Source: Lingula anatina (Eukaryota > Animalia > Brachiopoda). From it: a stretch of 64,000 nucleotides of DNA. The stretch spans positions 26,274,225 through 26,338,224 of the forward strand of contig CM120640.1 of NCBI GenBank assembly GCA_051362555.1, given 5' to 3'. Below, piece by piece: positions 9,046 to 31,463 of this stretch; the stretch's first letter is position 1, and each line of letters begins with the position of its first letter. The notes under the pieces are model-generated. The model had not been told where the DNA came from. It made no database searches and was given only the letters and a program-made list of their open reading frames with translations. The position numbers were made by a program, and so were the translations under genes.

Positions 9046-11837
9046 AGAAAAGAGGCGAATGGAGAGGTACAGACCAACTTATAAGTGTATGTTGATGTAC
9101 CACCAGCCATTTCCATGTATTTAAAGACATTTTATGAAGGCATGTATTCAGAAAAGCTTATTGAAGCATATTCCCATTGAAATAATATCTTAATTTAGGC
9201 CAAGTCATATTAGCACAACTGCATTGTATTTCAAACATATTTCCTTGCTCCAAAATTACTCGGATGTCATTTTTATCACAAATAACTTTGTGTTCCACTT
9301 TCCTGGTATCAAGTCAGCTGTGTGATTGGGAAGATGTTGCACTGCAGTAGGAAAGTATATCCAAACTGATGAGAAAAGCAGCTGTTTGTATTCAGATCAT
9401 TTAGAAAAAGAAAATTTGGTGACTTCTTGGCTTCTCTCTCCTCAAGGTCTTATTCATTGGCACTTCCAACACCTTCCCTAAACAAAAGCAGTGTTGACAT
9501 TTTTCTTAGTCATTCATTTATCATTTATTTTATTTTCTTGTCACTGTATTTCTGTGCATGTCACCTTTTGTTTGAGGGGTCCTTGGATTGCTTCTTGACC
9601 AAATGAGACTGATACCCTCTTCAGCGAGGTTATACATTTTGCTGTGGCATCTTGTTTAGCATGTAACCAACCCCTGCTCTGAAGTAACATGCTCATCCTC
9701 AAGTCTCTCCAAGAAATAAAATGCAAATGAAAATTTAATCTTTATATTATGCTCAAAAATGGGAAATTACATCTGTAAGAGTTATTCCATGGTTTATGGT
9801 AACTGTCAGTCAATTTACTAAATAAACCATCAAAACAAAGTTTATAGATAATGTTCGGCCTACTCATGCTTCAACAACACACAGAAAACTGAACTTTCTA
9901 GTCAGTGATGATGAGACAACATAATTGTTGAGTGGGGACTTTTCTGTTATTTTTAAAAACACTGACTTATTTTTAATCAGGACTGGTGGTCTGCATCTCT
10001 TGCTCTGTGGTATTTGACTGATGGTAACTTGGCTTCCGTTGGGAGGACTGCTTGACTGGAGTTCAGCATTCGGTGGAGGTTCGCCATTATGGTCTTTTTT
10101 CTTTTAGAACTACCAGTAGATGGGGCATTTGTAGGTGTTGACTCTGCCATATGCTGTTACTCCATGTTTACTCCGTGAAGGCTAAAAGGGAATACATGTC
10201 TCTCAGAAGAGAGTTTTTAATATAACAACCACGTCTAAAAAACTGTATTTATCTGTCACCTCATTCATTTATTCTGAATATTGTGTCACAAGCATTCACT
10301 TGAAGATTTTAGCATCTTTTACATAAAAATCATTTTCTAATCAGTGTATATAATGTACTGGCAAGGATATGGACTTGTATACATTCATACCCATATTAAT
10401 TGTCTTGTTTTAAGCAGTGCCTTCCCTGTTAAAAAGGAGTTACATGGGTTGGGATTACAATCAGGCAGCCAAGTAATTATCATTATAAAACATACTCTTA
10501 AGTAACATTTTAAGGTGACATTATACATTATGCAATTTTATGCATATTTATGTGAATTATGAGTTTAGATTTTTTTTTTTTTTTGACAATTTCTATATTT
10601 TAAAGATATATTATACAATTAGTGACTTTGACTGAGGCCATTATGTTGTTTTGCTGACCTCAGAAAAGTGATATGGACCAAGGTGCTTTCCTGGAAAGTA
10701 CTCAGCATGATGATGTGTTGCTATTTTGAGGAACTTGACAAACCAGGTCACAGGACATTTCATAATGTCTGAAAAGTAAACCAATACAATATAAGGTGAA
10801 TGCCAATTATAATATTATATAATGATGTATAATAATTTTAAAAAGCAATACAGTGAAAAGATATTTGAAGTTGTGATTCTAATATTAAAGCATTAAATAT
10901 ATTTACTTGTAACATTTTACATGGTGAATGAATAAAATAATTGCCTACATTGTATGCCTTGCATTCTTGATGTGTTACCCACATTTGTATGTTGGTGCTA
11001 AATGCTTAGACCCAGAAGTATTGCAAAATAGCCAAATATTCTTTCAAAGGAAGAAAATAAAGGGAAAATTTGTGTTATTTTCTGTATTCAAAGCATTGAA
11101 AGTTGTTTTCTGAAGATATGTATTTAAAATTTTTATTCCACAAGAAGCATTGGTATATGTTCAATTCAATATTTATATGGAAATTTATGTATGTATAATT
11201 ATGGTGATCATCCATCATTACTACCCAGCACTGTAACAATGCAGGGAAGCAATGCTGGGGGAGGGAGGCATACTGATATGCGTAATGCCATGATTTTAGT
11301 AACAGGTAGTTATTATCAGGGAAGTAATGACGATCCCTTACCATTAGCAATGAAAAACTCAGGGAGTTAGTGAATACCTTTACATTGTACAGTAGTATCA
11401 CTTGAGCAAAACCACTCACAGTGCATGTGATAGTTTTTTGAAATGCAATATTGAATGATACATATAACAATCATCTGACATGGATATTAAAATTTTGATT
11501 TGAAGAAACTGCTTCATGTCATGCTCTATGTTGAACTCTTTGTTAAACTGGGATATTTCAATTTCTGCACAAAGAGCAGTCATTTGTGTGGTACCTGGAC
11601 TATGCACAATGTTCCATTCTTGCCTTCTAAGCAAGTCTGCACAATAAATTGCATACCTGCTGGTAGAGTTCACACTTTCAAGTCGTACGTGACTTCTATC
11701 ATTGATGATGAGAATTTTAAAACGTTGACCAACTCTAAGAATTTTAAAAACCATCCACCTCTAAAATAGGCAGTCTTCTACTTGAATAGACCATCCAAAG
11801 GAGGACTGGATGGCTCACCTTTGATCAGAATGAAATT

Positions 11838-13090
11838 AACAAGGCAGCAAAGCTGTCAAATGTACAGACAAAAAACAGAAAATAAAGATGCAAAATAGGT
11901 CATTTTGTCAATTTTGATGCAATAATAAATAATGCTTATAATAGCACTGTCAGTCAACACTGAATTTTAATCATGCACAACAGGTAACATGGTCAATAAC
12001 AGGAGTGGACCCAGAGATATTGCAAAATTTACCTGCATAATTATCACTGCTTCCTTATTATTAATCTAGCAGACTGGCTTAATCTTTGGGAGTTTACAGG
12101 GAAATATCAACAACTGTGCTTTATGTAATCTCATTTAATAACCTATTAATTAGGCAAATGACTTTATAACTCTGAACTTAGCTTAGTGATACCCAAGGGA
12201 AATTTACAGACTGACCCTCTCAAAGGTCTTTCAGGCCCATAAGTCACATCTGAAGAAAAGCACAAAGTAATAATGCACAAAATAGGATGCTGTCAATTCT
12301 GATGCAATAATATATTACGCTTAACTGCAAAGTCAACATCAAATTTAAATTATGCAAAACAGGTAATACCGATGAAAGTAAAAGCAGGCCCATGAGAGTT
12401 CAAGTTCATACTTAGAAAATGCCAGAATGAGAAAAATGAGAATTTCACAAAAAGTTGCATAATTCAATATAAAATGATAATCCAATAGAGCTGGTTTTCT
12501 TATTTAAGCTGTATGTCAATCCTAAGAATCATTCTTTTACGCTAAAAAAAATAATAAGTAACACAGTTTGCTTTTTATCATAACGTTTGTGATGACAGTG
12601 CACGAAGTTGGCTTTTTGTCAATTTTGATGCAATATTACATAATGATTAACTATGATTACCACCATTTATTTTCATTAATAACGTGGTCATTTAGAAAAT
12701 TTGATTACCACTGGGCTTCATGACCATGGGAGTTCCAAATCCCACATTGAAAATGCCAATATATGAAAGAAAACAACTTCACAAACATGTACAACAGAAA
12801 AAGAAACCAATTAGATTGCTTTTCCAACACAGGCTGCATTTTAGAACTGTGTTTCTTTCCTGTAAGTTTTAGGAAGAGTAAGTAACATGGTTTTTCTTTA
12901 ATGGTCACTATAAAAGCAGTGTCCAAAATAGAGGTTTCTTCATTTTCGTTGCAATATTACATAATGCATAATGACCATCAATTTTAATAATGAAATAAAA
13001 TTATCATGGATATTCAGACTAGCAAAGGTCTTCAAACCCATGGAAGTTCAAAGTCACACCTTGAAAATGTCGATATGTGAAAAATTTAAG
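11838..13090 (-). mobile_element. HINE (Helentron-associated) 3' terminus plus internal repeat block
   Basis: AACAAGGCAGC-AAA-GCTGTC hairpin and subTIR ATGTACAGAC at ~11838-11872; 12023-13090 is homologous to 31826-32900. Confidence 0.7.
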
Positions 13091-16000
13091 GATGAGTGCA
13101 GATAACCATTGGCAAAGTGCCCATCGTCAATTTTTTTAAATAATTTGCTATTATAAAGTTTATGCATATATTGGTTGTGTGAAAAAATATTATTTGGTTT
13201 GAGGCATCGTTTGAGGCATCGTATTTTTAATGAGTTATATGTGGGGGTGGAGGTAACCAGATTTACCTGTTGTATGGAGTCTAATATGAATCAGAGCAAG
13301 TTATTTCAGCATATATATTGCATAAATAATTTTTTCTAATGAAACTTGTCTTGTGGTGAAAAAAAGAGTTATATGTTAAATAATTGCGATGTGGCACAAG
13401 TAAATGGGAAAGTAATTGTTTTTTTTTTTTTTTTTTGTTTGTTTGTTTGTTTGTTTTTTATTAATCCTAGCGAAGAGAGGGAGGGGTGGTGTATTACAAT
13501 ATTTTCTCACAGAAACCATCACTGATTTCACTTAACTGTATAAAAGTCTTGTAACTAGAAAAACTTGTATCAGCGTATTTATTAATTTTATATAACTTTT
13601 CTCACAGACCAGCATTTGTTGGTATAAATAATTATATTGTTAACCAATACACATTTTGTACAAAGCCCTATAGAACAGTAAAAAATGCTAAAAGCAAAAG
13701 GCTGTTACAGTAACACAAAAAAATCATGTGTTAAAGCACTCTAAACACCTATTTGGAATGTTTCCATTAACCATACAATAAACAAGGTATAAATTGTACC
13801 AAAATAATGATAAGGTAAAAGTAAAAACTAAATGAAAATATAGTACTCATAATAACAGTAATGGCCAATAATCTGTATGACAATGAAAATAAATCACCTA
13901 AAAAGTACTTCATATATGATAATGTATGTGATAAAGAGCTTGTATAGAAAGCAATGCAAGAGTTATTTTATACAAAATATATAAATATGAGAATAAAAAA
14001 TGTATAATAAACAATAGATAATTAATCAGATGTGCTGTCTGAAACACTTTCTGCCTCGCTAATACTCTCACCACTTGATGTTGGTAAATGCAAGAAGTTA
14101 TAATGAGACTCTTTATAACTTCTTGGTAAATGTGAGGCATCCTACCTCCCCCCCCCCCCACACGCACACACACACAAACACACACGCGAAAGTTTTTTTA
14201 AACCATGCCAGTTCTGAACTGTGAATAGGGGAACTATGGGTCGCTGCATGCCATCTTCTTTCAAGCAAATCAAAGAAATGTTAAGATATTTAAGCAATTA
14301 TAAATAGTAACTAAAACATTTTAATTTAAAAATCACACCAAGCATATTATCTTTTCGTTATCCTTTCTCCTTGCAAAATCAAAGCAACCAAAAAAACTGG
14401 ACAACTCCACATAAATATTAATAGCAAAAATGTATTATCACTTTATCTTTATTGTCATCATCTGTGAAACAAGATATGAAATGAAAGTTTCTTCAAAGTG
14501 CATTGTGGATAAGTGTTCCAGTGTACGCGGACAAGGTCGTTCAATGACGGCCTGGGGCAGGTTAGTAAACTTCAAGTTGATATCATGTCAACAAGATGCA
14601 AGGACACTGTCAATCACAATTAGGGGAGAGGCATGCGTGGTTTCCCTTTAAAAACTATTATAGCCTAACATTGATTCTTCCCTCCGAAGTAAATGTGTGA
14701 TTTTTTTCTTTTTAAACAAAAAAGTTAAGGTATGAAAACGCTGAATGTATTTCAAACGTAGGTGTATATACAATAACACAAATAATGAAATCTGTGTCTC
14801 ACTCTCACACGACACCCCCGCGTCCAAACTGACAGGATGGTGGCGACAGCAACGCCCCCAGTCGACAATCTAAGATTGGAAGTCTATGAGCGATAGACTA
14901 ATTAATGCCAAATTTCCGCATGACAACGATTTATAGACTCCCGGGAATTATTTTCCCTCAACGCTCTTTGTCGCGCTGGCGGTCAATGCAGCATTTATTT
15001 CAAAACAAGTTGACCGCAAATTAAGCACGATTTTGCACCTTCAGGTTCCGTGTCACGTTTTCATATCATGCATCTTTTATTTCTACAAGTATTCTCTGCC
15101 CAAAATGCGTAAAAAAAGAGAGTTATCTTACCAGGTTGTTTAGAAAACTTCTTTTTCCTCCGACTACACGTCTTCTCTCCCGTTCACCTCCAGGTTAAAA
15201 TGACCACTCAGCTTCGCTTCTAACACCACTACACGTCACTTCTGGGCACAATCAGTCTTCTCCGATTCCCTTTAATAAACACACGTAGGAACTGCAAGTC
15301 TTCAAAATGGTTGAATACATGTAAGTTTAAATCAGTGAAAAGGGATCCAAAAAATATTTTTTCATTTTAATACTTATCATTCATCAGCTTTTGCATTTTC
15401 CATCTATTTTATCTCAGATGCTTATGATAAGTGTCTAAATCATCAATTAATTCTCGTAAAATATAAATAGTTTAAGTCATGAATAATCCTTAGATATACA
15501 CCCAATGCATATTTTCAAAGATGCCAGTGTGTTATTGTGATGTTATACAAGTTGTTATTATTTTAACAAAAGTTAAAAGAAAATGATAAAAAAACACCAG
15601 ACTAAGATATGGGTCCCGTGGCAATCTTCCTTCTACAATTTAAGTGTGAATTACTAGTAACTATGAAAACAGGAACTCACAAACAATATTACAATCACCA
15701 TTTACCGAATCTGTATTAATTATTACTTTCAATCTTAAAACATTTAAGTCAACCATGAAACAATCTATAAGAGAATTGAATTGTGTTAATGGTATGGCAA
15801 CTCCTGAGAACATCTTCAGTTATAATATAATGGCAGTGTTCCAAAACCACGATACATATTAAATACAGGCTTGCTTAAATCTTAAACGGAAAGGAAGTAT
15901 TATCAAGTGTTGCACCTGCTCAGCAAAGCTGCAAATTTTATTTTGCAGCATCACAATTTCACTAGCACAAATCAGTAATAATTGTTAGTATATTTGTAAC

Positions 16001-16197
16001 ATATTTAATATTCGTCATTTGCCTCTAATCTTCGCTAAACATTATTAAAATATTACCACACATATTTATGATAAATGTTTGCATATTTGTAATAACTAAA
16101 TTTTGTCATTTGCTACGGGAATGGGGGGGGGTCTTAAAAATAAAAATTTTGGGCCGCAATTCCCACAGCAAATATGAAGGAGTACCAGTAGATAAGG

Positions 16198-16360
16198 CCG
16201 GTGCCATGAAACTGAGGGTCCGTGTGACAGAAAGTCCGTCCTCCATATAGTTAGGGTTAGTTTGACCTAAGTAGGTCAAAATCTAGGGCGAGGCTCACTT
16301 GTACAAATGAATGGGAAGCGGACTCTCTGTCATGGGGGACTTTCTGGTACATGTCACCGG
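16198..16360. mobile_element. 163-bp MITE containing a telomere-like TTAGGGTTAG motif
   Basis: Termini CCGGTGCCATG...CATGTCACCGG with subterminal GAAAGTCC/GGACTTTC; inserted in the first copy of a 3-copy degenerate tandem repeat (~16125-16740). Confidence 0.6.
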
Positions 16361-16817
16361 TGATGGCACAGAAATGGGAAAATTCTTGGTTTTGTCTAGT
16401 TTTGCTTGCATTATACATTTATATAAAATCTGATTCTCAAAATAAATGCAATCGGCAAGTATTATGCTACAGGGATGGGAGTGAGGTGTTCTTAAGAATA
16501 AAAAAATTGGGCCTTAATTCCCTCAGCAAATATAAAATAGTGCCAGTAGATAAGGACAATAATGGCACAAGGATGGAAAAAAATCTTGGTTTTGTCTAGT
16601 TTTGCTTGCTATATGCATTTATATAAAAAATTGGGCCTCAATTCCCACAGCAAAAAAAAAGAAAAAATAGTGCCAGTAGATAAGGATAACAATGGCACAG
16701 GAATGGGAAAAAACTAGTTTTTTTCTCGTTTTACTTGTGTTATAGTCAAGAACATATACATTTATACACAATGTACCCCTTCGTTAACATTAAGAGGTGT
16801 TGGGTTCTTAAATCTAC

Positions 16818-17255
16818 AGTGAGATTTATTTAAGTAAGATAGTTACTTCTCTAATTTGACTCAGGAAAGTCTAGGTAACGGCTCGAGTTATTCCTGGGGC
16901 TCCGTAACTTTAAAGCATCGCGTGTTGCGAACGGCGATATCACATAGAGGCTACAGTATATTACATGGGGCGAGCATGGGCAAGTAATGGAATCGAGACG
17001 CTTGCGCTCGGTCGCAATGCGCGCTGCTTTCGAGTTACGGGGCCCGGGAGAGCAAAGTAACGCAGCACCACAGCTTTGTATCCAAAAACCAAAATTCAAC
17101 TCATTACCTGGACATCGGCTAGTTTTATGGAAGAAATTGGAGTGACAGAAATAGTGACGAGATTGTAAAAGTTTAAGTGAGAGGCGAAAGAGGACAATTT
17201 CTACGAGCATACATGCGAGTCCATTTAAATTTATTTGCAAGTCTCGCTTTTTTTT
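16818..17255 (+). ncRNA. Unclassified ~430-nt highly structured RNA candidate
   Basis: Nested stems 16819-27/17239-47, 16849-57/17134-42, 16869-78/17104-13 and 16891-936/17005-50. Non-WC pairs are mostly G.U on the plus strand. Ends in T8, followed by a long poly(A) at ~17285-17340. Confidence 0.45.
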
Positions 17256-17283
17256 AGCGATCTGTACACGACCACTTTTTTTA

Positions 17284-17327
<44 letters not shown>

Positions 17328-17470
17328 AAAGAAAAAGAAAATTATAGAATATTTTTTATTCAACTATTATGTACAATTTTGAATATTTACAGTTGATTTA
17401 AAAAGGACTAATAATCAGTAATGAACTACGTAAACGTAATGAATTAATACATAGCAGTATTATCAAAAGT

Positions 17471-17730
17471 TCTAAGATTTTCCATCGTCTTCATCTAGCG
17501 TCGGAACGCACACAGTCCGATAATGCAGGTCTTGTGGTCGGAAACTGGTACCAGATGCTCTCGGGCCGTGGGGAAAAACCCGTCTAAACCCTTCGTGGGG
17601 AATGCCGGGAAAGTGCCCACGCCCGGATAATTCGGTCCTTATAACATGACAAAATCGGTTTCTATTGGCACGGCGCTGCGTACAGTTCAAGAATCGTCCC
17701 GTTTTAGACAGCATTGTGTGACGGAATAAC
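17471..17730 (+). ncRNA. Second CpG-rich structured domain
   Basis: Stems 17471-78/17701-08, 17497-503/17671-77, 17540-49/17654-63 and 17562-72/17616-25, again with plus-strand G.U pairs. Confidence 0.35.
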
Positions 17731-19989
17731 CTTTGCCTTGACTAACTATTCTCTATATATACTATACACGAGGTGAAGCCTAAAAACTTATTAAAGTAAT
17801 TCTTACAGAAAAAGGCACTGAAGCCAATAAAAAACTAACAAGAGACATAACAATTAAACAGAATCATTTTGACTTTATCTTGGAGAATTAAAACCATAAA
17901 TAAAGTTAATCATTTTACAACTGCAAGCATCTTTCAAAACTTTATTATAGTTCTCTTTATGATAAAATGCAAACAGATTCAAGTAATATAATTATAACTC
18001 GGGAAAATCAAGGATTTCAACTAAACTTTGATATATAATTCGACTTAAAATACCAGGTTTTTAAAATGTAACTTTGCACTGAAATCGCAACTACCTGCAT
18101 GATACAAGTACAGAATAAAGAAAGCTTGCTTCAAAATATTTCGGATCTCACATTACACTGTATGACCGCCCATGTAAATTTCAATCTGAATTTTTTTTGA
18201 TCCGGAGAAAAGGTGCATTTGTGATGAAGTGGATGTATTTGTCAACTATAACACTTGAGAAAATCTGAATATTAGTAATGTGATCTCTATCTTGAGAGAT
18301 GACAGCATCTCTCAAGAAGAGCAGACTGTACAAAAAATATAATGAAATATTTTCTCACACGTAAAATATTTCATTACAGATTTTGCACAATCTATCAATG
18401 TAAAATCTCTTCATGTAAAAGCGTTTACATGAAGTCAGATTTTACAAAGATGTGAGGGTTTGTTAGTAAGGTTAGTGTGCAGGTTAAGACCTTTTCAAAT
18501 GCCATACTGACAAACAACTCCACATCATCAAAAGCACAAATTTGAAAAATGACCATCTCAGATTGAAACAAAACACAGACGACCACAAGTGGTGGGAATG
18601 TTTTTGTGAGCAAAAAACTATCTGCATTCAGAATGTGGATAAAGCAACTCTATATTCAAATTTATTAATATAATAATTATAGCAACTGTAGAGGTAGACT
18701 TTTCCTACAGAAGCACACATCTTATTCAATTGATCTTGTATGGAATGAAGAATTATCTTGAACCTCAGTTTTCTCTTCTGTTATTGAAATAAAATGGTTC
18801 ACTGCATAAGGCATAAAATACAAATGAAATTTGATGCAATTTCACCTGACATGTTTGTAATCCATGAACCCCAAATATTCTCAGTATCCAAAAGACATAT
18901 ATTATTAGACTGTATTCCCACTACATTCAGTACTGTATATTGCCTTCATTACCATTCCACATTCTTTATATTTGTTTGCAGAACAAGCCGTGTCCTTCAA
19001 CACCAAAACTCGTGGGATGTCCGAACATCCATGAAAGTGTCCACAGGGCTCCTTGCTAACGCTGTACAGTGTTCAACATCTTGGACATTTGGTCTTGTGT
19101 CGACGTTATCTGACATCATGCAGGCGTAATTATTGGAAAACTCCCAATTCGTAGCCTACAAATGAAATCCAACTTTTACTCAAAAGTATGAAAAGCTATA
19201 TCGAAAGCTTGCAGTACCTGCAACAAAGAAAGTATATCACTGGTATTTACACACCGTTAACATTAATGATAAGTTTGGTTCTTAAAATGATCAGAGCGTT
19301 ATTTCCAAATGTACAGTGAAATATGCTTCCTTTATTGAAATATATATATTAACTTTTTAGAGTAAGTAGACAGCAGTCTTCAAAAAATAAATTATTTCAA
19401 ACATTTGACAAAAAAGTAAGAAAAGATGTTGCTATATTGAATATTGTAATGTTAGCCTACATGTTAAATTGTTGACCGTCTGTGCTACTTCTAATTCTAC
19501 TGTTTGTTTACATAGGATATAGTTTTTGATCACTGTCAATAATAAGAAACGCCATAATACACCAATAATAATACTTAAAAAATTCAGAACCACTTTTCTT
19601 AAGTTGTTGATCCCCAATAACTTACAAAGTTATCTGTATAAAGATCCCTCAATCCTGAAGAAGTGTTTCATCTGGAGGTTTGGTAGTTGCAATCTTCATT
19701 TTTAGTATCCACCACTTTTGGTAGCCTGCAAATTTAAATTATTACTTCAAAATGTAATAAAAGTCAACCATTTGTATATGAAATGTGTTTTTAAAGTTTC
19801 AGCAGTTTGATGGGAAATAAATATCAAAAGCACTTTTGTCACAAACTTGGAAAAAACATTCAAGCGAAATATTTTGACATGCCACTGGCGACCTTCAGAC
19901 TTCATGTCACAATGGGGTATTGCACAAATTCGTTTTAACGAAGGAAAAGGAACACTAACAGCATTCAAACGACTCTACTCAAAGACAAG

Positions 19990-20320
19990 TTTAAGTAAAG
20001 CCTATCTAGATCCAGCGGGAGGAGTGTACTAGTATTCCATCAAGTGTTTAATTTGTGAAGGATTTATATAGGAGAGACAAAGAGAAAGTTGAACGTTAGA
20101 GTTAAAGAACACGGGAAGGAATAAGAAAGGGTACCCGAAGAGGGAAAAATACACTACAGCCCAAGGTAGCCTCCTGCTACAACGAACCATCACAAAAAAA
20201 CATTGATTGGGAGAGTGCCAAGATTCTACAAAAAGAAAGTGACTGGAGAACAAGAGGCGTAAAGGGAGGCATATAAACCAGGAAAATGCCTAACAATCTG
20301 AACAATATAGAGAGATGGAA
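19990..20320 (+). mobile_element. Penelope-like element remnant (GIY-YIG endonuclease)
   Basis: Broken translation GVY*YSIKCLICEG..YIGETKRKLNVRVKEH..IDWESAKILQKESDWRTRGVK..NNLN..RDG; lies antisense within an intron of the lncRNA candidate. Confidence 0.8.
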
Positions 20321-20403
20321 ATTAATACTCACTTCTACGGTGGCCTTTTATTACCACAACCACAGCACTGGAGGTGGGGGTGGTAGCTGCTAGTATACAA
20401 TTT

Positions 20404-20772
20404 CTGGACCAGTGACAACGTCCCGGAGTCACATTGGTGGCGGTGGGTGTTGGGGGCGATAGCTCCAAGTAATCTGGACCAGTAACCACGCCCTGGAGTC
20501 ACATTGGTGGTGGTGGGTGGTGGGGGCGGTAGCTCCAAGTAATCTAGACCACTGACCACGCCTCGGTGTCACATTGTTGGTGGTGGGTGGTGGGGGCGGT
20601 AGCTCCAAGTAATCTGGACCACTGACCACGCCTCGGAGTCACATTGGTGGTGGTGGGTGGTGGGAGCTGTAGCTCCAAGTAATCTGGACCAGTGACCACG
20701 CCCCGGAGTCACATTGGTGGTGGTGGGTGGTGGGGGCGGTAGCTCCAAGTAATCTGGACCATTGACAACGTC
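20404..20772. repeat. 70-bp G/C-skewed minisatellite, ~5.3 copies
   Basis: GGAGTCACATTGGTGG recurs at 20425, 20495, etc.; unit contains GGTGGTGGTGGGTGGTGGGGGCGG. Confidence 0.95.
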
Positions 20773-22225
20773 CTGCAGAATATTGAGACTGTTGAGGATC
20801 TGAAAGTTGACGAATGGCATGTCAAAATATTTTGTATGAATGATAAGGTTTTTCCACATCTGTGGCAAATTAAAAGAGCTTTTTACCTGTGAAAAATGAG
20901 CACTGAATTTGCTAGAGTAAATTGTAAATGGAAAACAAATGCCTGCACCGAGTGACAGGTCCCAAACATTCTTAAAACAATTGTCTAAGACCTTGCACAA
21001 AATGCTCAGTTTGTTGGAGTTGCACTGATAAAAGATTTGTATTATCTATCTATGAATGACAATCTAGTTCATTTACCCTTATCCTGTCCCACAACTTACC
21101 TTGAATGCTCTCTAATCACAACTATTGAAGGGCTCTTGAAACACTATATGATATAGCTGACACGGCTTTCTCCATTTTAGCCTTGTTAACCTTGTTAAAA
21201 TGGACCGTCATCAGGACAGGCGCTCGCCAATGCTATCTGCCTCAACTACAAAATAAAAAAAAATTATAAGTCAAAAGTTTCCCTCTTTACTTCTCCCACC
21301 CAAATCCAATCTACTAACCATAAATATCTTAATCCTAGGAGTGGGTCATGGGTAAAAGACATTGCCTTCTGAATTTGAGCTGTCAAATTAATGTGGCTAA
21401 CGGTTTTTAGTTTTTCAAGGTATGAAAAGTCACTTAAATGTTTTGTTTTCCCCAAAAAACATGAGTGATATGTACCTTTTAAGGGTTTCCATCTCTGTGA
21501 AACGCCATATGCTTCTGATGCTCCCCCATGCAGCCCCCTAACATACAGACCATGGCAGGACTCAACCATGCACCAAGGATTGAATGTGACCCTCTTCTTG
21601 CACCCCTTTCAAAAAAGCGGGACTTTATCAGGAATTGCCCTAATTGAGTTCTGTAAATAGAAAGGAAAATTTGATTAGTTTTCAAAAATTGTATATCAAA
21701 AGCAGACTGCAGCCAGAAAAATTGTTGGAATCGGTAGATTTCCAGAATGTGTCAATTTGGTGACATGGCTGTTAGATTTTTTCTATAAGTATGAAAAAGA
21801 GCTTTTGATTTATTTTAAATGTAACTGTTACATCATGATTCGAGAAAAATGTCAAGGTCTTGTTAATACAAATATTAATGCAATCCAGTCTAGTCCTATT
21901 GAACTTTGTATTCGAACCAGTGAATCAAGATTCAGACATCTATATCTAGTTTTTAGGAAAGAAGGTGGACTGAATGGCCAGTAGGGTGAAAAGTTTATGG
22001 CATAGACTGCTGCTGAAAAATTAATTTTAGTGTATTGTTCTCGCCAGTAACACGGGTTACCTTGCAGGTTTTTCCGCCTCAGTGAAACACCATATGCTTC
22101 AGACGCTTCTCCAATGCAGCCTCCTCAACAGACCGTGGCAGGACTCACTGGCACCAAGGATTGAGGGATGTATCGGAAGTGTGCACGTGGCCCTCTTCTC
22201 CTTGCAGTTGCCATGAAACGTTGGA

Positions 22226-23040
22226 CAGGACTCGCTGGACGCTTCCTAGTGCAGCCACCTCGTAGACAGACCATGGCAGGACTCGCTGGACGCTTCCCCA
22301 GTGCAGCCACCTCGTAGACGGACCATGGCAGGACTCGCTGGACGCTTCCCCAGTGCAGCCACCTCGTAGACGGACCATGGCAGGACTCGCTGGACGCTTC
22401 CCCAGTGCAGCCACCTCGTAGACGGACCATGGCAGGACTCGCTGGACGCTACCCAAGTGCAGCCACCTCGCAGATAGACCATGGCAGGACTCGCTGGACG
22501 CTTCCCCAGTGCAGCCACCTCGCAGATAGACCATGGCACGACTCGCCGGACGCTTCCTTAATGCAGCCACCTCGTAGACAGGCCATGACAGGACTCGCTG
22601 GACGCTTCCCCAGTGCAGCCACATCAAAGAGACGGACCATGGCAGGACTCGCTGGCACCAAGGAATGGTCAAAGTAGCTTAAGTGTAGATGTGGGACGTC
22701 TCCTTGCAGTTGTGTTCTGTCAACAGAAAGAAAAATGAATTAATGACTTTTCATACTATGTCAGCACTCTGCAGTCAGGCTTACCTTTAAGTGGTTTCCA
22801 TCTCATTGAAACACCACATGACAAGACTCGCTGGACGCTTCCCCAGTGCAGCCACCTCGTAGACGGACCATGGCAGGACTCGCTGGACGCTTCCCCAGTG
22901 CAGCCACCTCGTAGACAGACCATGGAAAGACTCGCTGGACGCTTCATCAGTGCAGCCACCTCGTAGACAGACCATGGCAGGACTCGCTGGACGCTTCCCC
23001 GGTGCAGCCACCTCGTAGACAGACCACGGCAGGACTCACT
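22226..23040. repeat. 52-bp minisatellite in two blocks (~8 copies 22226-22660; ~4 copies 22824-23040)
   Basis: Unit CGTAGACGGACCATGGCAGGACTCGCTGGACGCTTCCCCAGTGCAGCCACCT, period 52 (22261, 22313, ...); diverged single copies near 22100-22160 and 21520-21580. Confidence 0.95.
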
Positions 23041-23100
23041 GGCTCCAAGGGATGGTCGAAGTAGCTTAAGTGTAGATGTGGGGTGTCTCCTTGCAGTTGT

Positions 23101-24808
23101 GTCCTGTAAACAGAAATAAAAACGAGATTAGATTTCTTTCATTTCTCAAACCCCCCTTCCAAAAAGAAAAAAGATTACATACCTTAAGGAGTGTAATCGA
23201 AGTCCCACAGGTGGCGCCCATCATCTTCTATGTCCTGTAAACAGAAATAAAAACGAGATTAGATTTCTTTCATTTCTCAAACTTCCCTTCCAAAAAGAAA
23301 AAAAGATTACATACCTTAAGGAGTGTAGTCGAAGTCCCACAAGTGGCGCCCATCATCTTCTATGTCCTGTAAACAAAAAATAAAAACGAGATTAGATTTC
23401 TTTCATTTCTCAAACCCCCCCTTCCAAAAAGAAAAAAGATTACATACCTTAAGGAGTGTAGTCGAAGTCCCACAGGTGGCGCCCATCATCTATGTCCTGT
23501 ATACAGAAATAAAAACGAGATTAGATTTCTTTCATTTCTCAAACTCCCCTTCCAAAAAGAAAAAAAAGATTACATACCTTAAGGAGTGTAGTCGAAGTCC
23601 CACAGGTGGCGCCCATCATCTTCTATGTCCTGTATACAGAAATAAAAACGAGATTAGATTTCTTTCACTTCTCAAACTCCCCTTCCAAAAAGAAAAAAAA
23701 AGATTACATACCTTAAGGAGTGTAGTCGAAGTCCCACAGGTGGCGCCCATCATCTTCTATGTCCTGTAAATAGAAATAAAAACGAGATTAGATTTCTTTC
23801 ACTTCTCAAACTCCCCTTCCAAAAAGAAAAAAAGATTACATACCTTAAGGAGTGTAGTCGAAGTCCCACAGGTGGCGCCCATCATCTTCTATGTCCTGTA
23901 AACAGAAATAAAAACGAGATTAGATTTCTTTCATTTCTCAAACTCCCCTTCCAAAAAGCAAAAAAATTGCATACCTTAAGGAGTGTAGTCGAAGTCCCAC
24001 AGGTGGCGCCCATCATCTTCTATGTCCTGTAAACAGAAATAAAAACGAGATTAGATTTCTTTCATTTCTCAAACTCCCCTTCCAAAAAGAAAAAAAAGAT
24101 TACATACCTTAAGGAGTGTAGTCGAAGTCCCACAGGTGGCGCCCATCATCTATGTCCTGTAAACAGAAATAAAAACGAGATTAGATTTCTTTCATTTCTC
24201 AAACTCCCCTTCCAAAAAGAAAAAAAGATTACATACCTTAAGGAGTGTAGTCGAAGTCCCACAGGTGGCGCCCATCATCTTCTATGTCCTGTAAACAGAA
24301 ATAAAAACGAGATTAGATTTCTTTCACTTCTCAAACTCCCCTTCCAAAAAGAAAAAAAAAAGATTACATACCTTAAGGAGTGTAGTCGAAGTCCCACAGG
24401 TGGCGCCCATCATCTTCTATGTCCTGTAAACAGAAATAAAAACGAGATTAGATTTCTTTCACTTCTCAAACTCCCCTTCCAAAAAGAAAAAAAGATTACA
24501 TACCTTAAGGAGTGTAGTCGAAGTCCCACAGGTGGCGCCCATCATCTTCTATGTCCTGTAAACAGAAATAAAAACGAGATTAGATTTCTTTCATTTCTCA
24601 AACCCCCCTTCCAAAAAGAAAAAAAAGATTACATACCTTAAGGAGTGTAGTCGAAGTCCCACAGGTGGCGCCCATCATCTTCTATGTCCTGTAAACAGAA
24701 ATAAAAACGAGATTAGATTTCTTTCATTTCTCAAACCCCCCTTCCAAAAAGAAAAAAAAGATTACATACCTTAAGGAGTGTAATCGAAGTCCCACAGATG
24801 GCGCCCAC
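23101..24808 (-). repeat. ~132-bp tandem array, 13 copies, each a 52-nt exon plus ~80-nt intron
   Basis: AAG|GTATG donors at exon ends 24770, 24637, 24504, 24372, 24237, 24108, 23975, 23844, 23712, 23578, 23448, 23315, 23183; each intron has a CTAAT branch site, pyrimidine tract and TACAG acceptor. Confidence 0.95.
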
Positions 24809-25191
24809 CAGTTTGCAGTCTGCTTCCTGGACCTGTAATAAAAAGAAACCTGGAAAGCATGGGAATGTGCAATGACACTACGACTCCAGCCCACGACAGC
24901 AAAAAGGTGAAGTATCCTGCGAAGATGACCGAGCGACGATTCCTCGTGGGGAGAAGCGAAGATTTTAGCTGGCCAGCTAAGAGAAACGCCGAATCCACCG
25001 TCTTTACGTCTGCGTGTGCAGGGAACAATATGTCGAAGAGCGATGCGTTGACGTAGGATGAGTAGAAGATTGGGAGAAATGGGAGTCGACTCCCGTGTCC
25101 TTTGTTCTTGATACAGGGCGCAGCACATGGCATCCGTCCTGTTGCTCTAGATCTGTCCGCTGTTGAGAGAACGCACTTTTAAAATTTTGCG

Positions 25192-25250
25192 CTTTTATAC
25201 CTTTGTTGACGTATAGTCACATGATGGCGTTCATGTTGTCACCAATGGTC
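25192..25250 (-). promoter_or_regulatory. TATA-box promoter for the lncRNA candidate
   Basis: TATAAAAG at 25199-25192, with nearby E-box CATGTG, CGCCAT and CCAAT motifs, at the edge of a CpG-rich island. Confidence 0.5.
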
Positions 25251-25761
25251 AACTTGTTCAAAGGGGATGGCCTTTGATAGTGATGCGCAAAGTTGGTAAT
25301 AATATCTTATCAACATATACATTTTCTTTTATATTTTATACTTTGATTATTCTGCCTGTCAGTTTGTTTATAATAAGAGTAATAAGTTCTAAGCAATGTC
25401 TGTGAAATGTGCAGGCAAATTTGATGAAAATTTCTGAGCAACATACCTTCTCCCTAAAATTTTTATAGGTACGATGTCCGTTAAGCTGGTAGCTGTGAAC
25501 TTCTCGCAGGCTACTTTAGCGTGCGTGTATTTGAACACTGATCCAAAATGTGGATAATGTAATTTGGCGTAGGGTGACTGCATTTTTGAGGCAGCCTGAG
25601 GGAGTATGGTTGTTCTGATTGTAGTGAATTGTAGAGAGACAATTGGAAGTACACTGGGCTTAGCATGTTCAGTCACCCAAGTACTCTGAAACACATTTTG
25701 TAATCAGCTGACTTGTTATTCTGAAAAATGAAAAAACAAATTATATTGATTTACAATCTGC

Positions 25762-26085
25762 AAGATAGAAGCAGTGGATCATATTACTTATGCCAGGCAG
25801 AAGAAACGACTGAATGTATATTTTTATATTCAAAACGTCTACTGATTTAGGTAATAATTAATAGCCTGGAAGATAGCAGCAGTGGATCATATTACTAATG
25901 CAAGGCAGAAGAAACGAGTGAATGTATATGTCTATATTCAAAACGTCTACGGATTTAGGTAATAATTAATAGCCTGGAAGATAGCAGCAGTGGATCATAT
26001 TACTAATGCAAGGCAGAAGAAACGAGTGAATGTACCTGTATATGTCTATATTCAAAATGTCTACTGATTTAGGTAATAATTAACA
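25762..26085. repeat. 108-bp tandem repeat, 3 copies
   Basis: GATAGCAGCAGTGGATCATATTACT at 25872 and 25980, with a diverged copy at ~25764. Confidence 0.9.
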
Positions 26086-26613
26086 ACTGACGTCTCCCTT
26101 CATGGCGTCGGGTTATCAGTACTCCCACACCAGTAACATGAGTTATGAGTTGAGCAGAAACAGAAAAAGATTTTTTATAAAGATAATGCAAGTATATGTG
26201 TAGGCCCATTTATCTTTTTTTATATTACTAAACGTAAGAATTGTTTGTCCAAGTGAAACTTTACTTACATCAGCCTAGCAACTAAATCTGACGTTTTAAC
26301 GTCTCCGAAAATAACTAGAATTTTTCGAATAACGCAATAATGCGGCCACCTTCGAGGTGTCGCCCGGTTTTTAAAAATTGAAAAAAGAAACTTTTCGGGG
26401 CGTCTTTTGTCGCGGGTCATTATTTTCAGTTGTTTGATGTTTTTTTGTAATATTTTAGCCATTGATAGAATCTATAATTCAGTTACATCCACGATTAGCT
26501 AGACGAAATGGTGACAGGGAAAAGTCAAATTTTTAAACGGCAAAAACTGCATTCTCTTAGAAAGCAATTAGCAAACATTCATTACCAGGCACTGTGAAAA
26601 ATTCAACCGAAGT

Positions 26614-26918
26614 TGAAGACAAAATGTGTCAAAAATAAACGTGCATGTCGTAATACCTATTTAAAGCAGTATAATTTTTGTTAGTATTAAAAACGTGTAA
26701 ATATTATCCACATAGGATATTTTTAAAGCCTTCGATATTTAAAATATTTAAACTTCCCATACTTTGAGGCATGCATGAGTCGGAAAATGTTTGCATAATT
26801 ACATAAAAAACTAGAATTATCTCTTTATGTGACCACAGTTTACTCATGTGCCTTACATCATTCCCTTAAACCCTTTCCCAATATCGATTTCAGATATTTT
26901 TGACACATTTAGTCTTCA
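26614..26918. mobile_element. Possible MITE bounded by ~24-bp inverted repeats
   Basis: TGAAGACAAAATGTGTCAAAAATA versus TATTTTTGACACATTTAGTCTTCA (one mismatch); no clear TSD. Confidence 0.45.
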
Positions 26919-29283
26919 TCTGAATCACGTGAACGTTATCAAGTGTCATAAGGCGTACATTACGAAAATATTTAGGTCTTGGAACGTGATTTGATGACTT
27001 TTTTAAATGCATGTATATACAATTATAAATTTATAATTAAGTTATTTAATATCAAATTATAAGTTCTGACCGAGTTTTAAAATTTATTTTAGGAGGGGTA
27101 AAAAACCCCAACCCCATCTAATATATATTGGATACATCCGTAGGCCTTTGTCCTTAGAACTAGGCGTACAAAATGTGTCTTCTAGCTAAAGTTATTATTA
27201 TGGTGTACGTGTAATTTAAAAAACTACGTAAGAGTGACAATAGGTCATGTGTTTCGAATGCACCCCCACTCTCCGATCAGACATTACTTTTGTATAATTC
27301 ACAGTCCATCTTCGTTGTAGTTTGTGACTTAATGTCATTTCTTAGTGAAGCGGTGTTGTCCTCAATTTACCTTAAATGTCCAAATTACTAAGAAGAAACC
27401 ACTTGCAAGAATTATAAGGCTTTTTATACTGCTAGGTCTATATATGTAGACGTGATACACACGATATTTTGCAACCCCACAAAATCTGTTTCTTAAAATT
27501 TTGGTTCCACCACAAAGCTTAGCACTATCATTCTTTTTTGCTTTATTGATATATTTTCAGTACATAAATAACCATTGTCTGTTGCCCAATTTTGCACAAA
27601 ATTAAGATAATCCCCAAAACCTCATTAATTGTGTTTCCTCCATCCCAAAAAATATTAAAAATTTCTCCTCATAATTTAGTAGTGCACTGGCATCTACACA
27701 GTACATAAATGTATCATTATAATAACATCTTGTTCTTACTGATAACATAATTAGCTTAATTCCATAACAATTCTAAAATGTTAATAACAATGAAAATTCA
27801 AAGTAGATGGCAAGATTCTTATTGTGCTGATAAAGATAAAATATGTAAATTCAATACTGATTAGGTACTGTATACTGGCTCATTGAAAAAAGGGAACCAT
27901 TTCACAAAAAAATTAAGCTTAGACTGCTTAATCTGGATAGCCAACTATACAAAGTCAACTTTGCAATATTGTCTTACAACTACAATTTTTTAAGAATGAT
28001 TGGTCCACAGTTGATGAGTAGAATATACATAAATGGGCTACTGACACCACTGCAAGTAAAAGACTTGCCAAGACAATCAAAATGTAAATCAAAGGAAAGT
28101 GAAAAGAAAGTAAAAAGACTGGAAAAAATGAGGCAAAATTGATAACTTGGTTAATGAGCGAACAATACTCTAGTTTTGATTAAATCAGAACTTTTCTTGC
28201 ACCTACATCTGTATTTTTATTTTTGCCATTTTGTAAGTGAAAAAAGGGGAATAGGGGATTGGTGTAGTGAAAGCCCAACCTTAACCTTTGGATGCTATTC
28301 TCATTAAACATATGCATAAAAGACAAAATTTAGACCACAAATAGATTCATGCAATCTACCAACCTTTTTTACAGTGAGTCATTGCAACTTATCAGTTATT
28401 TCTGGCCTAGGCTATCTGTAAGATTCTTACAACTGTGAAGTGCAACTTAGCCAGCTAAGTCTTTATAGGCTCAGATTTTAGACTACAAACCAACTTCAAA
28501 CATTTAGTAAAGCAAGTGCCAAGAATAGTTAGTTTGAAGGCTCTGCCTCCCCATAGAGTGAGAACAAACACAGTCACACTGTATGATACATTACAGAAAA
28601 CATTGGTTAAAAATATACTCTGGAATTTTACATTTTCACTAGTATAGAATCAATTTGATTTCTAAAACTGACTTATTATAAAAATACTCCTGTCAATTTA
28701 AAACTTTTTCATAAAGCATATCTGAAATACACTGATAAAATGTTATTAAAAATATTAAAATTTGATATTCACAGATAAAATAGGCTCAAGTCAAAATGAT
28801 TAAGACAATTATTGAAGCATTATTCAAACCCCAATTTTGATTATTTTCATACAATTAGTGATTCACAAGTTTTTTAACAGAGTTGTACCTAATCTGACTA
28901 CATGATATCTATCAAAATCTCTCTAAAATCAAGTGACAAAAAATGCCCACAGTTTCAAGCACCATAAAATATGGCTTAAGTAAGTAATATCCTCAATTGT
29001 TTCATAATAAACGTCATGTCACTTGAATGTACCATTCTCCAGAAAAAAAGATGAACTTGCAAGGTTTGATAAGTCTGCGTTTACAGGTAGATGTCATAGT
29101 TTAATATACATGAGGCAGCGTGGTCAACAATATTATATTATATCAGTTTCTCTAGCCTCCATGTCTTATTCGTCATAATATTTTGATTTTCAAATTCAGG
29201 GTCCCCTAGTAAAAGATCTTGCATTTCTTCTTGATCACAGAAGAATCTGAGTTGAGAATACAGTTGAGAATACAGAGTTAAAA

Positions 29284-29389
29284 TTAGGCCTCTCCTCTCC
29301 ACTCGGGGTCCTCTTGCAACTGAACCTGGCTGACATCCATGGTTACATCTTGAAAAATAATATATTCCCAAAAAAGTTTAAATGGTGCA

Positions 29390-29424
<35 letters not shown>

Positions 29425-31324
29425 TAAAATCAATAAATCTTGGACACATTACTTGTCGTACGTCTGAATAACATGACAGACAAGAAGAAAATAGTTGCTC
29501 TTGAAAATGGACTTTAAGTAATGAAAATGCAAGATGACAGCTAGTAGATAGTACATGTGCATGCAATTTATTTGAAATTCTGACTTTTCAGTCCTAATGA
29601 TTTAGATTATTTATAGCCAATAATCTGAGAAAATAAAATATTCAACAGAGAAATTGATTGCAATAAATCCTGCTCGTACATGACTGCTTAATATTCACTG
29701 CAACAAACCTCTCTACGACATCGTCGAGCTGATCAGTAGGGTCATCGTAATCACATCCTGTGTACGCTTTTTTCTCGAGGCAGTACTTAAGGAAACTACA
29801 CCAAAGAGAAGTTGAAAATAAAGAAAGAATTGCCTACTTTCTTTTGTCTTTCTGTATGGACTTTCATTCACAATAAAAGAAAGAATTCCCTAGTAGACAC
29901 TATTTTGTCTGTCAGTTTGGAGTTTAATTTACATGTTTTTTAACTTTCCTTTTTTTTTCTATTTTTTTTTTTATTTAACAGTCTGTCTGAACTAAAACAT
30001 GATAGCTTTCTCTTTTTAATCTTTCTATCCTCTTTGTTTTTTTTTTTTTTTGTCAGTCTGTCTGAACAAACATTAAAAATTTAATTTATGAACTTAATTA
30101 AATCCTTAACATTTCTTTTTTTGTTGGTCTGTCTGTCTGTCTGAACAAGAGTTCTTAGAAACAATGAGATTAAATAAAGATTAAATAAAGGAAAAAAATC
30201 TTGAACCTAACATGGCTGATCTGTGTTTGGTTTGAAAAAGTCTTATAATTTGATTGAACTTTTTTTGCTTACTGATCAAATAAATTAAAATAATTCACTT
30301 CACCTGTTCCAATGTTCATCTTGCGAAAGAAGAAACGGATTCCCTACAACAATCAATAGGGCCTTTGCTCTTGTGATCGACACATTAAACCTCTGAAAAA
30401 AAATTAATCCCACATGTAACTGTATGTGCGGGTGAACACTGAAGACAGTATAGTCTGAGACTAACTGTTCATATCTCTTCTGTGAATTCCGCATCACATG
30501 GCATAGTCTCCGCAGTGCCATAGTGGAAAGAAATGGTGATGAAAATAGTATGGACTCTAGCTGTTTAAATAACCTTACATTTCAAAATATGTGTGTGCAC
30601 ATCCACATGTACAAAGTCTTATGAATTATGTGTTCAAGCATATACACATGCCACAGCACAATCATGGTAATGACACTATCTTTTCAATGGGCAAAAATTA
30701 TCAAACTTTCAAATGTATACCTTTATAAACACATAAAGTATATAGTATTAGTGGTACTCTTACTGCACAGATTAGAACTATAGAGTAGCTTACTTTTTTA
30801 TTCTGTTGTGACCATCCAATAGGAATTGGGTAGGAGTATTAAAATTTTAAAAATTAATGGCCTAAAAAATACCGCATCTGTAAAATTCACGATTTCCCCC
30901 CCACTGAAAAAAATCAAGTTATTACCATATGCTGAGGTGGCACTAGCAATTTTTTCTAAAGCCAAATTACTACTTTTTCATCACTTTTTTCTCCAAAATG
31001 GTTTAAATTTGACTAAAATAAGTCAAATCAACCCTATTTTGTTTAGCCAATTGAAGTCAGTTTTAGCATTTGGCTTAATTGGGCAGTGTTAACTCTACCC
31101 CAGTTTGTGTGTCCACATGCATAAGTGTACAAATGACTGACCTTTGGGTTCTTTAAAAAGCCCTTTAAAAGTATCATACAAGCGTCCAGAGCCAGGTAAT
31201 CGGGGTTACTCCTCACGGTGGAGACCATGATGACCCGTCTCTCCTGACCCTGAAATTCCTCCACACTGCCCACCTTTATGTCCCGAAAGTTTTTCTTGAA
31301 CAGCAGTTGCTTCAGTTTTTGAAC
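29284..31324 (-). pseudogene. MOV10: 5'-truncated MOV10 RNA helicase gene fragment (last four coding exons, 150 aa, frame intact)
   Basis: Exons 31324-31142, 30392-30304, 29795-29680, 29348-29284. Encodes SF1 motif V (KVGSVEEFQGQE), [26 protein letters not shown] (motif VI), FLKYCLEKKAYTGC and C-terminal QEDPEWRGEA* (cf. MOV10 EPEWRNEL). No upstream helicase exons seen before the tomosyn 3' end. Confidence 0.8.
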
Positions 31325-31463
31325 CTGTGGAGAGAATAAAAAGGGATGTCTGTGCATTTACAGGCCCGTAACCAGCAATTTCAAAAGGGGGATTATTTTT
31401 CTGAAAAAGTGGACCTTTTTCCATAAAAACTTTGAGAAAAAATTAAAAAGGAAAACATAACAA

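What the first reader, a model, noticed from the sequence alone, without database searches (positions are those of the whole stretch)
18660..25250. TATA-driven ~20-exon non-coding unit built from three different repeat modules
Seen: all strong splice sites over 6.5 kb are on the minus strand and chain from a TATAAAAG promoter to a poly(A) signal. The mature RNA would be module A (52 nt x12), module B (52 nt x~12) and module C (70 nt x5). All unit lengths are 3n+1, and two unrelated modules share a 52-nt period. Inference: a modular architectural lncRNA of Xist/roX/FIRRE style, or a small-RNA precursor. It could also be a decayed gene or transposon transcript with unstable minisatellites.
Basis: partly seen in the sequence, partly recalled or inferred. 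Interest (0 to 1): 0.8.

Follow-up and report, generated by a model that had tools for sequence, protein, structure and literature searches.

The report
Spliced repeat-built brachiopod non-coding RNA family
Next to the MOV10 gene of what is likely a Lingula lamp shell, a gene built from three repeated modules is transcribed and partly spliced, shows no sign of coding for a protein, has look-alikes at three other Lingula loci, and likely works as an RNA held in the nucleus when its short introns are left in.

Summary
The unit is real. Stranded poly(A) reads show minus-strand RNA that rises just below the TATA box (near 25,165). They also show GT-AG splices at exons C-Y and Y-Z and between module-A exons.

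- Module-A introns are mostly retained in one run (7 of 61 joints spliced) and mostly removed in another (10 of 16).
- Same-strand RNA also lies in the C-Y intron and beyond the proposed poly(A) signal.
- The 3n+1 rule and the shared 52-nt period carry little weight.

No coding signal was found. The first-exon ORF has a stop in 10 of 10 reads, there is no credible Pfam hit and no Rfam hit, and no element ends were seen. Module B matches three Lingula anatina gene models on other contigs, read in changing frames, so this is a multi-copy family. Older exon duplicates stay 68-75% alike while their introns sit at chance level, which hints at constraint on the RNA.

Best reading: a lineage-specific lncRNA family grown by exon-intron duplication, likely nuclear when unspliced. 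An Xist- or Firre-like role is untested. Hairpin and snoRNA precursors are not supported.

The parts
25192..25246 (-). Pol II-type promoter: TATAAAAG at 25199-25192, CRE-like TACGTCA at 25213, inverted CCAAT at 25246 (motif names recalled)
   Evidence: RNA depth rises just downstream in X1
24770..25165 (-). Exon 1 (5' end approximate); its last 40 nt match the module-A exon. Holds two overlapping ORFs of about 120 codons that read variants break
23104..24769 (-). Module A: 13 GT-AG introns of 79-83 nt alternating with 12 exons of 52 nt (two of 49 nt). Introns mostly retained in X1, mostly spliced in X7
22785..23103 (-). Exon B1 (predicted): head + 52-nt module-B units + tail
   Evidence: 5 X1 reads run from an A acceptor into a B-type head
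22061..22716 (-). Exon B2 (predicted): two fused B-type cassettes, the first with most of the 52-nt units
   Evidence: matched by three L. anatina gene models
21476..21650 (-). Exon B3 (predicted): older, single-unit B-type cassette
21100..21245 (-). Exon X (predicted), unique sequence
20333..20799 (-). Exon C: five 70-nt C-rich units. Donor 20332 shown by reads; acceptor uncertain (20799 or 20772)
19850..20256 (-). Transcribed part of the C-Y intron: retained intron, alternative last exon, or reads from another copy
   Evidence: depth up to 32 (X1) and 42 (X2), 0 to 2 in X7 and X8; ATTAAA at 20052
19626..19725 (-). Exon Y, 100 nt, both splice joints seen
18661..19155 (-). Exon Z, acceptor shown by reads; coverage tapers toward AATAAA at 18666-18661
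17500..18420 (-). Two further transcribed blocks (18012-18420, 17500-17800): longer 3' end or separate repeats; AATAAA at 17946 and 17360
   Evidence: no joint to exon Z seen

Best explanation
This is a transcribed, minus-strand, partly spliced RNA gene with no detectable coding signal and with look-alikes in three other Lingula gene models; it likely grew by unequal crossing-over of exon-intron cassettes and likely works as a nuclear, protein-binding RNA whose location would be set by whether its thirteen short introns are removed. SHOWN: transcription, strand, an approximate start under the TATA box, three kinds of splice joint, heavy retention of the A introns in one run, loss of the exon-1 ORF in reads, and more than one copy. 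INFERRED: a B-type exon cassette was duplicated several times (B1, two halves of B2, B3). A 52-nt piece then expanded inside it, and the 132-bp A cassette and 70-nt C unit expanded recently. The unspliced form carries 13 tandem AAG/GUAUG 5' splice-site motifs; in mammals such motifs hold RNA in the nucleus and on chromatin through U1 snRNP. The poorly folding B units and C-rich C units would then be repeated docking sites for RNA-binding proteins. Partners, targets and phenotype are untested.
For: Stranded X1 depth over exon 1 is 8-16 on the minus-RNA side and 0-1 on the other, roughly 7 fragments per kb per million pairs. GT-AG joints C-Y (4 of 4 runs) and Y-Z (2 of 4 runs). A joints spliced: 7 of 61 in X1 and 10 of 16 in X7 (Fisher p 8e-5). 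Exon-1 ORF1 carries a stop at codon 44 in 10 of 10 X1 reads. Of the 21 listed substitutions tested in exon 1, 5 are silent in frame 1 (6.1 expected at random); in frame 2, 7 of 19 are silent (4.8 expected, p 0.17). No homologue for that ORF among proteins of 66-210 aa. Twelve stop-read-through frames of the unique flanks gave only 2 sub-threshold Pfam rows. Module B matches 3 of 7080 candidates, all L. anatina 'uncharacterized' models on contigs of 36, 346 and 687 kb; homologous exon tails are read in different frames within one model. B1, B2 and B3 are 68-75% alike over 40 nt at the exon end (shuffled 48-49%, p<=0.003) but 47-57% in the next 40 intron nt (shuffled 50-53%). B folds worse than 150 of 150 periodic shuffles (z +2.2). 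U1-motif retention: PMC4380460 and 10.1101/310433, abstracts only.
Against: No localisation, binding or loss-of-function data. Retention may be slow splicing of a crowded array or nascent RNA rather than regulation. X7 reads are fewer (41), unstranded and more diverged (19 of 41 at 90-95%), so the splicing difference may reflect other copies or alleles. The exon-versus-intron test rests on three non-independent pairs, and duplications that carried little intron, or a coding past, would give the same pattern. Within A, exon columns vary less than intron columns (2 of 52 vs 13 of 80), but about four of the 13 come from one slipped homopolymer, so this is not decisive. The B folding result is one of three modules tested; A and C were unremarkable. 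The 3' end and four middle introns are unresolved. The U1 mechanism is known from mammalian cells only.
Confidence: 0.45

Rival explanations
1. A real but functionless multi-copy transcript: a promoter fires into sequence whose minisatellites and exon-intron cassette expand neutrally, and splice sites look perfect only because the copies are recent.
For: A copies are 96% alike, so their splice sites need no selection. Most A introns are left in X1. Coverage is patchy and runs past poly(A) signals. No match outside Lingula except period artefacts. Unchecked notes from this scan describe similar spliced arrays in other genomes, which suggests they arise easily.
Against: Older B-type exon ends keep 68-75% identity with working-looking donors while introns are at chance. 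Y-Z splicing is nearly complete in X1 (16 joints; intron depth 0-0.5 over 19236-19541). The same head-unit-tail exon plan persists in three other gene models.
Confidence: 0.25
2. The transcript of a non-autonomous mobile element (for example Helitron-type) or of a decayed coding gene carried by one, which would explain the dispersed copies.
For: Look-alikes on three other contigs. Reads with 8-11 differences and loose ends in exon 1 and exon Z point to diverged copies. A 70-nt imperfect inverted repeat brackets exon C (19835-19899 / 20799-20869) and palindromes lie at 18323-18446.
Against: No long direct or inverted match between the flanks 9100-18700 and 25170-29300 (best 14 nt; none among the 25 longest of 664 inverted pairs). 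No transposase, helicase or other Pfam domain in any frame with stops read as X. Module-B patterns were absent from viral and metagenome contigs.
Confidence: 0.17
3. A tarsal-less-like polycistronic mRNA: once A introns are removed, each exon junction creates one more identical 29-30-residue ORF (11 copies), so splicing would set peptide dose.
For: In the predicted spliced A region every exon has ATG-ATG, the second in a good start context, and stops at the end of the next exon. The 49-nt variant deletes one codon in frame. Spliced A joints exist. Repeated similar short ORFs are the tal design (PMC1852585, passages).
Against: The ORFs overlap each other and lie behind about 400 nt with two upstream ATGs, which suits re-initiation poorly (inference). 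A 3n+1 repeat with one ATG and one stop gives such ORFs automatically. No protein homologue of the exon-1 ORF, which ends in the same 12 residues (length-limited). Most A introns are retained in X1.
Confidence: 0.08
4. A host or precursor for small RNAs: repeated intronic snoRNA or miRNA, or a piRNA source transcript.
For: Tandem exon-intron repeats in a non-coding gene are the plan of the SNORD115/116 and Bsr arrays (PMC3413130, passages). The unit lies 4 kb downstream of a MOV10 helicase gene.
Against: No Rfam match even at E<=1 over 17400-27000. The 81-nt intron has no RTGATGA or CTGA box (read from sequence) and folds no better than shuffles (z -0.16). None of 10 pieces folded better than z -1.4. 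The neighbour is MOV10, not the piRNA-linked MOV10L1, by its best-identity hit.
Confidence: 0.05

Closest known systems
Firre lncRNA with its exonic repeat RRD (PMC4820808; start of abstract and 12 passages seen)
   Same: Spliced non-coding RNA whose exons hold a repeated module; a candidate nuclear-retention role for the repeats.
   Different: Firre's local repeats occur within one locus only, whereas module B is in at least three other Lingula gene models. No sequence relationship was sought beyond Rfam (no hit). Nuclear retention and hnRNPU binding are shown for RRD and untested here.
Tandem exon-intron snoRNA host arrays SNORD115/SNORD116 and rat Bsr (PMC3413130; passages seen; the exon-intron layout of the hosts is partly recalled)
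   Same: A non-coding gene made of head-to-tail exon+intron cassettes, with nuclear-retained long transcripts.
   Different: Their introns carry box C/D snoRNAs. The 81-nt A intron has no C/D boxes, no Rfam match and no special fold.
RNAs retained by unspliced 5' splice-site / U1 motifs (PMC4380460 and 10.1101/310433; abstracts only)
   Same: The intron-retaining form holds 13 tandem near-consensus 5' splice sites.
   Different: Shown in mammalian cells. Here both splice sites of each intron are intact and are used in part of the RNA.
Xist, roX and hsr-omega repeat-rich lncRNAs (recalled, not read)
   Same: Several distinct tandem-repeat blocks in one long non-coding RNA.
   Different: No Rfam match, no conserved hairpins, multi-copy rather than single-locus, no evidence on sex bias or chromosome coating.
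tarsal-less / polycistronic small-ORF mRNAs (PMC1852585; passages seen)
   Same: Repeated near-identical short ORFs in the predicted spliced form.
   Different: tal ORFs are separate and their peptide motif is conserved across arthropods. Here they overlap, arise from splicing of a 3n+1 exon, and have no known homologue.

Membership tests
Repeat-rich spliced lncRNA (general class) | Transcribed, longer than 200 nt, spliced at GT-AG sites | tested here: met
Repeat-rich spliced lncRNA (general class) | No conserved coding frame | tested here: met
   stop in 10 of 10 reads, neutral silent fraction, no homologue, frames change among gene models; translation of small ORFs not testable
Firre/Xist-type architectural lncRNA | Repeated modules lie in exons | tested here: met
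   A exons and exon C are joined by splices in reads; B exons are predicted
Firre/Xist-type architectural lncRNA | Repeats local to one locus | tested here: not met
   module B in three L. anatina models on separate contigs; diverged reads
Firre/Xist-type architectural lncRNA | Nuclear retention, chromatin foci, binding of hnRNPU-type proteins, sex-linked action | not testable with these tools
   needs fractionation, FISH, pull-down and labelled samples
Firre/Xist-type architectural lncRNA | Match to a curated RNA family | tested here: not met
   0 Rfam matches in the window at gathering score and at E<=1 over 17400-27000
Tandem snoRNA host array (SNORD115/116, Bsr) | Head-to-tail exon-intron cassettes in a non-coding gene | tested here: met
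Tandem snoRNA host array (SNORD115/116, Bsr) | Each intron holds a C/D or H/ACA snoRNA | tested here: not met
   no boxes in the 13 introns, z -0.16, no Rfam hit
miRNA or hairpin-RNA cluster | Long stable hairpins | tested here: not met
   10 pieces folded, best z -1.36; periodic controls z +2.2, +0.2, -1.4
piRNA precursor | 24-31-nt reads with 1U bias and phasing | not testable with these tools
   no small-RNA run among the 9 listed
tarsal-less-type polycistronic mRNA | Several similar short ORFs on one RNA | tested here: met
   11 ORFs of 29-30 aa in the predicted spliced A region
tarsal-less-type polycistronic mRNA | Peptide-level conservation and translation | tested here: inconclusive
   no homologue of the exon-1 ORF that shares the peptide's end (66-210 aa only); too few variants; no ribosome data
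Non-autonomous transposon | Dispersed copies | tested here: met
Non-autonomous transposon | Terminal repeats or target-site duplication bounding the unit | tested here: inconclusive
   none found between flanks; ends cannot be defined without other copies' DNA, and Helitron ends are too short for this test
Pseudogene of a coding gene | Alignment to an intact protein | tested here: not met
   only same-family Lingula models and 52-residue-period artefacts

The most novel reading that the evidence does not exclude
A splicing-switched, dual-use gene family. With its 13 short introns retained it is a nuclear RNA studded with U1 sites that gathers splicing factors or scaffolds chromatin at several dispersed loci. 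With them removed it becomes a cytoplasmic message in which every exon junction creates one more copy of a 30-residue peptide, so array length and splicing set the dose.
Probability: 0.06. Interest if true: 0.85.

Novelty: new member of a known kind. Interest (0 to 1): 0.45.

Why it matters
Repeat-built lncRNAs with known jobs come almost all from mammals and flies (recalled). This is an expressed, multi-copy example in a brachiopod lineage, and its history can be read at three ages of duplication. Its identical introns are spliced to very different extents between samples. That makes it a clean case for asking whether exon-intron cassette expansion builds functional RNA scaffolds or is neutral churn, and whether U1-site retention acts outside mammals. 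No paper naming these loci was found: 0 hits for the six locus or protein ids and 3 unrelated listings for Lingula + lncRNA + tandem repeat. The 20 of 27 listings seen for brachiopod + Lingula + non-coding RNA were not on this, and a 2026 Lingula genome paper has 0 main-text mentions of lncRNA, non-coding or tandem repeat. Supplements were not searched and subscription papers are outside the library.

Tried and rejected
No whole genome was held, so copy number, element ends and flanking synteny stay open.

The run search listed no indexed RNA holder ('no RNA holder listed'). Six of the 9 raw-read runs were laid (X1, X2, X4, X5, X7, X8; not X3, X6, X9). X4 gave 2 reads and X5 none on the 5' stretch; with no control gene laid, these are no test of tissue specificity.

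An upstream candidate exon (25720-25447) is not joined to the unit: no joint was seen and X1 depth is 0 at 25316-25467. This also argues against continuous read-through from MOV10.

A RING-like Cys/His stretch in exon Z (18908-19105) gave no Pfam hit with stops read as X; its Atlas search did not complete.

Nine further hits to the module-B ORF (P0124-P0132) are unnamed, 25-38% identical and mostly repeat translations with a matching period, so they were rejected as artefacts. The Atlas gave only 'hypothetical protein' clusters at 0.84 or below for P0121.

A common origin of the A exon and B heads was tested: only one of the B heads reached p 0.01-0.02 among many pairs, so it is left unproven, although the acceptor flanks are 70-81% alike.

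A hammerhead ribozyme was considered by eye (one CTGATGA in B, no matching GAAA core) and Rfam found none. Module-B patterns gave 0 matches in viral and metagenome contigs.
Full report
Setting. The window is AT-rich animal DNA. The gene upstream on the minus strand is a MOV10 helicase whose last exon ends near 29,285. Among 904 hits to one exon, the highest identity in the 120 rows listed is Lingula anatina MOV-10 at 87%, and four exons match that protein at 83-97%. The source is therefore likely a lingulid brachiopod. A NUDIX gene ends near 9,045 on the plus strand. No whole genome was held.

The observation. Module A is a 132-bp cassette: 12 exons of 52 nt (two of 49) and 13 introns of 79-83 nt with AAG/GTATG donors, a CTAAT branch-like motif and TACAG acceptors. 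B is 52 nt (spacings 52 in 8 of 13 anchor gaps) and C is 70 nt in 5 of 5 gaps. TATAAAAG lies at 25199, with CRE-like and CCAAT-like motifs upstream (names recalled). The strand bias of splice sites is real but is mostly one cassette counted 13 times. The A exon and B unit do not align, so the shared 52 is likely chance and the 3n+1 rule is weak.

Expression and splicing. Nine raw RNA runs with the same species label were offered; six were laid on two stretches. On 24632-25750, stranded run X1 gave 214 reads, X7 41, X4 2 and X5 0. X1 RNA is minus-strand, depth 8-16 over exon 1, falling to about 2 above 25164 and 0 at 25316-25467. This fits the predicted start and argues against read-through from MOV10. 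Joints across A units are spliced in 7 of 61 X1 reads and 10 of 16 X7 reads (p 8e-5). X1 intron depth equals exon depth and is about 40:1 stranded, so it is RNA, not DNA. X7 is unstranded and more diverged, so the contrast may reflect tissue, library or other copies. On 17400-20450 (X1 393 reads, X7 92, X2 390, X8 108), the C-Y intron is spliced in all four runs (6, 2, 1, 2 reads). The Y-Z intron is spliced in X1 and X2 (16, 10), using the acceptor at 19155. The same runs show minus-strand RNA inside the C-Y intron and in two blocks beyond the 18666 signal, without joints. Depth correlates with GC (rho 0.72), so a longer 3' end, alternative ends and reads from other repeats all remain possible. 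Three X2 reads join module B directly to module C, a layout not in this window.

Coding potential. The fully spliced model has no ATG-started ORF above 159 codons (that model had the Y and Z boundaries slightly off, corrected). Exon 1 has two ORFs of about 120 codons. In X1 the first has a stop at codon 44 in 10 of 10 reads. Listed variants also hit both start codons, and frame-shifting indels occur in 4 of 15 and 3 of 10 reads. Silent fractions do not exceed chance (21 substitutions from the 40 rows shown, 17 more rows were not shown, and two rows due to A pile-up were left out). There is no homologue at 66-210 aa. Pfam found nothing credible in the nine unit ORFs among the 15 scanned or in 12 frames with stops read as X.

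A family. The module-B ORF matches three L. anatina 'uncharacterized' models (LOC106164805, LOC106153014, LOC106173768) on contigs of 36, 346 and 687 kb; the MOV10 match is on a 1.67-Mb contig. They repeat the head-unit-tail exon plan. They read homologous tails in different frames within one model, and one appears to run through an A-like intron, as expected of ORFs called on a non-coding RNA. The wider search returned two of the three plus nine period artefacts. Reads with 8-11 differences and loose ends also point to diverged copies.

Constraint and structure. The older duplicates B1, B2 and B3 are 68-75% alike near the exon end and at chance level in the next 40 intron nt. This suggests constraint on the exon RNA but rests on three linked comparisons. 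No piece folds unusually well. B folds worse than all 150 periodic shuffles, while A and C do not differ. Rfam has no match. No element ends were found between the flanks.

Mechanism. The best-supported reading is a lineage-specific lncRNA family that grows by unequal crossing-over. For function I commit, at 0.45, to a nuclear protein-binding RNA. The retained form carries 13 tandem 5' splice-site motifs, which in mammalian cells block export and tie RNA to chromatin through U1 snRNP (PMC4380460; 10.1101/310433; abstracts only). The B and C units would be repeated binding sites. Transcription, partial splicing, non-coding status and multiple copies are shown; localisation, regulation of splicing and any function are inferred. 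Rivals are neutral expansion (0.25), a non-autonomous element or decayed gene (0.17), a polycistronic peptide mRNA with 11 junction-made ORFs of 29-30 aa (0.08) and a small-RNA host (0.05).

Comparison and novelty. It may work like Firre (exonic repeat as retention signal; PMC4820808, passages) but fails the single-locus feature. It is built like the SNORD115/116 and Bsr arrays (PMC3413130, passages) but its introns hold no snoRNA. It is filed only as a repeat-rich spliced lncRNA. Literature searches found no description of these loci (supplements not searched). The scan's own notes hold no look-alike by place or sequence. They do describe similar spliced repeat arrays in other genomes (unchecked), which makes the architecture less singular. 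Verdict: real, new member of a known kind, interest 0.45.

Noticed in passing
window 25580-25750 and beyond, + strand: X1 shows plus-strand RNA rising to depth 14 at the edge of the laid stretch, divergent from the TATA promoter and heading into a 108-bp x3 repeat (25758-26083) that has minus-strand acceptor-like sites. Many of these reads differ from the window at 3-4 places.
   Followed up: partly
window 19835-19899 and 20799-20869: A 70-nt, 75% inverted repeat brackets exon C. X7 and X8 hold many reads in which 19819-19855 sits in another context, so it is probably the end of a dispersed small element.
   Followed up: partly
window 17500-17760, - strand: GC-rich block with depth 44-48 in X1 and X2, a TATA-like GTATATATAG at about 17761, three Rel/Dorsal-like GGG(W)nCC motifs (recalled consensus), AATAAA at 17360 and a 57-nt A/T run at 17285-17341. 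Parts occur in other contexts in X7 and X8.
   Followed up: partly
window 9900-15330, - strand: A further apparent multi-exon gene. One ORF (11419-11760) scores weakly against Pfam Pox_C7_F8A (E 0.013, below cut-off); the hit did not recur when the longer frames were scanned.
   Followed up: partly
window 29283-31357, - strand: Last four exons of a MOV10 helicase. The exon at 31142-31324 has two more residues and several changes against the L. anatina protein just before GFLKNPK.
   Followed up: partly
window 36873-44250: Several arrays of a 160-bp unit interleaved with ACGGCG microsatellites, resembling non-autonomous Helitron-type repeats of marine invertebrates (recalled).
   Followed up: no
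window 55927-56664 and 62848-63147, - strand: ORFs that look like exons of a tomosyn/STXBP5-type gene (recalled from sequence; no Pfam hit).
   Followed up: no
window 31860-36400 and 11850-13070: By eye, long degenerate duplicated blocks in the MOV10 intron, with related sequence in opposite orientation at 11850-13070.
   Followed up: no
window 18323-18446 and 26611-26921: Two palindromes (71 and 48 nt) downstream of the unit and a 27-nt inverted pair 260 nt apart upstream.
   Followed up: no
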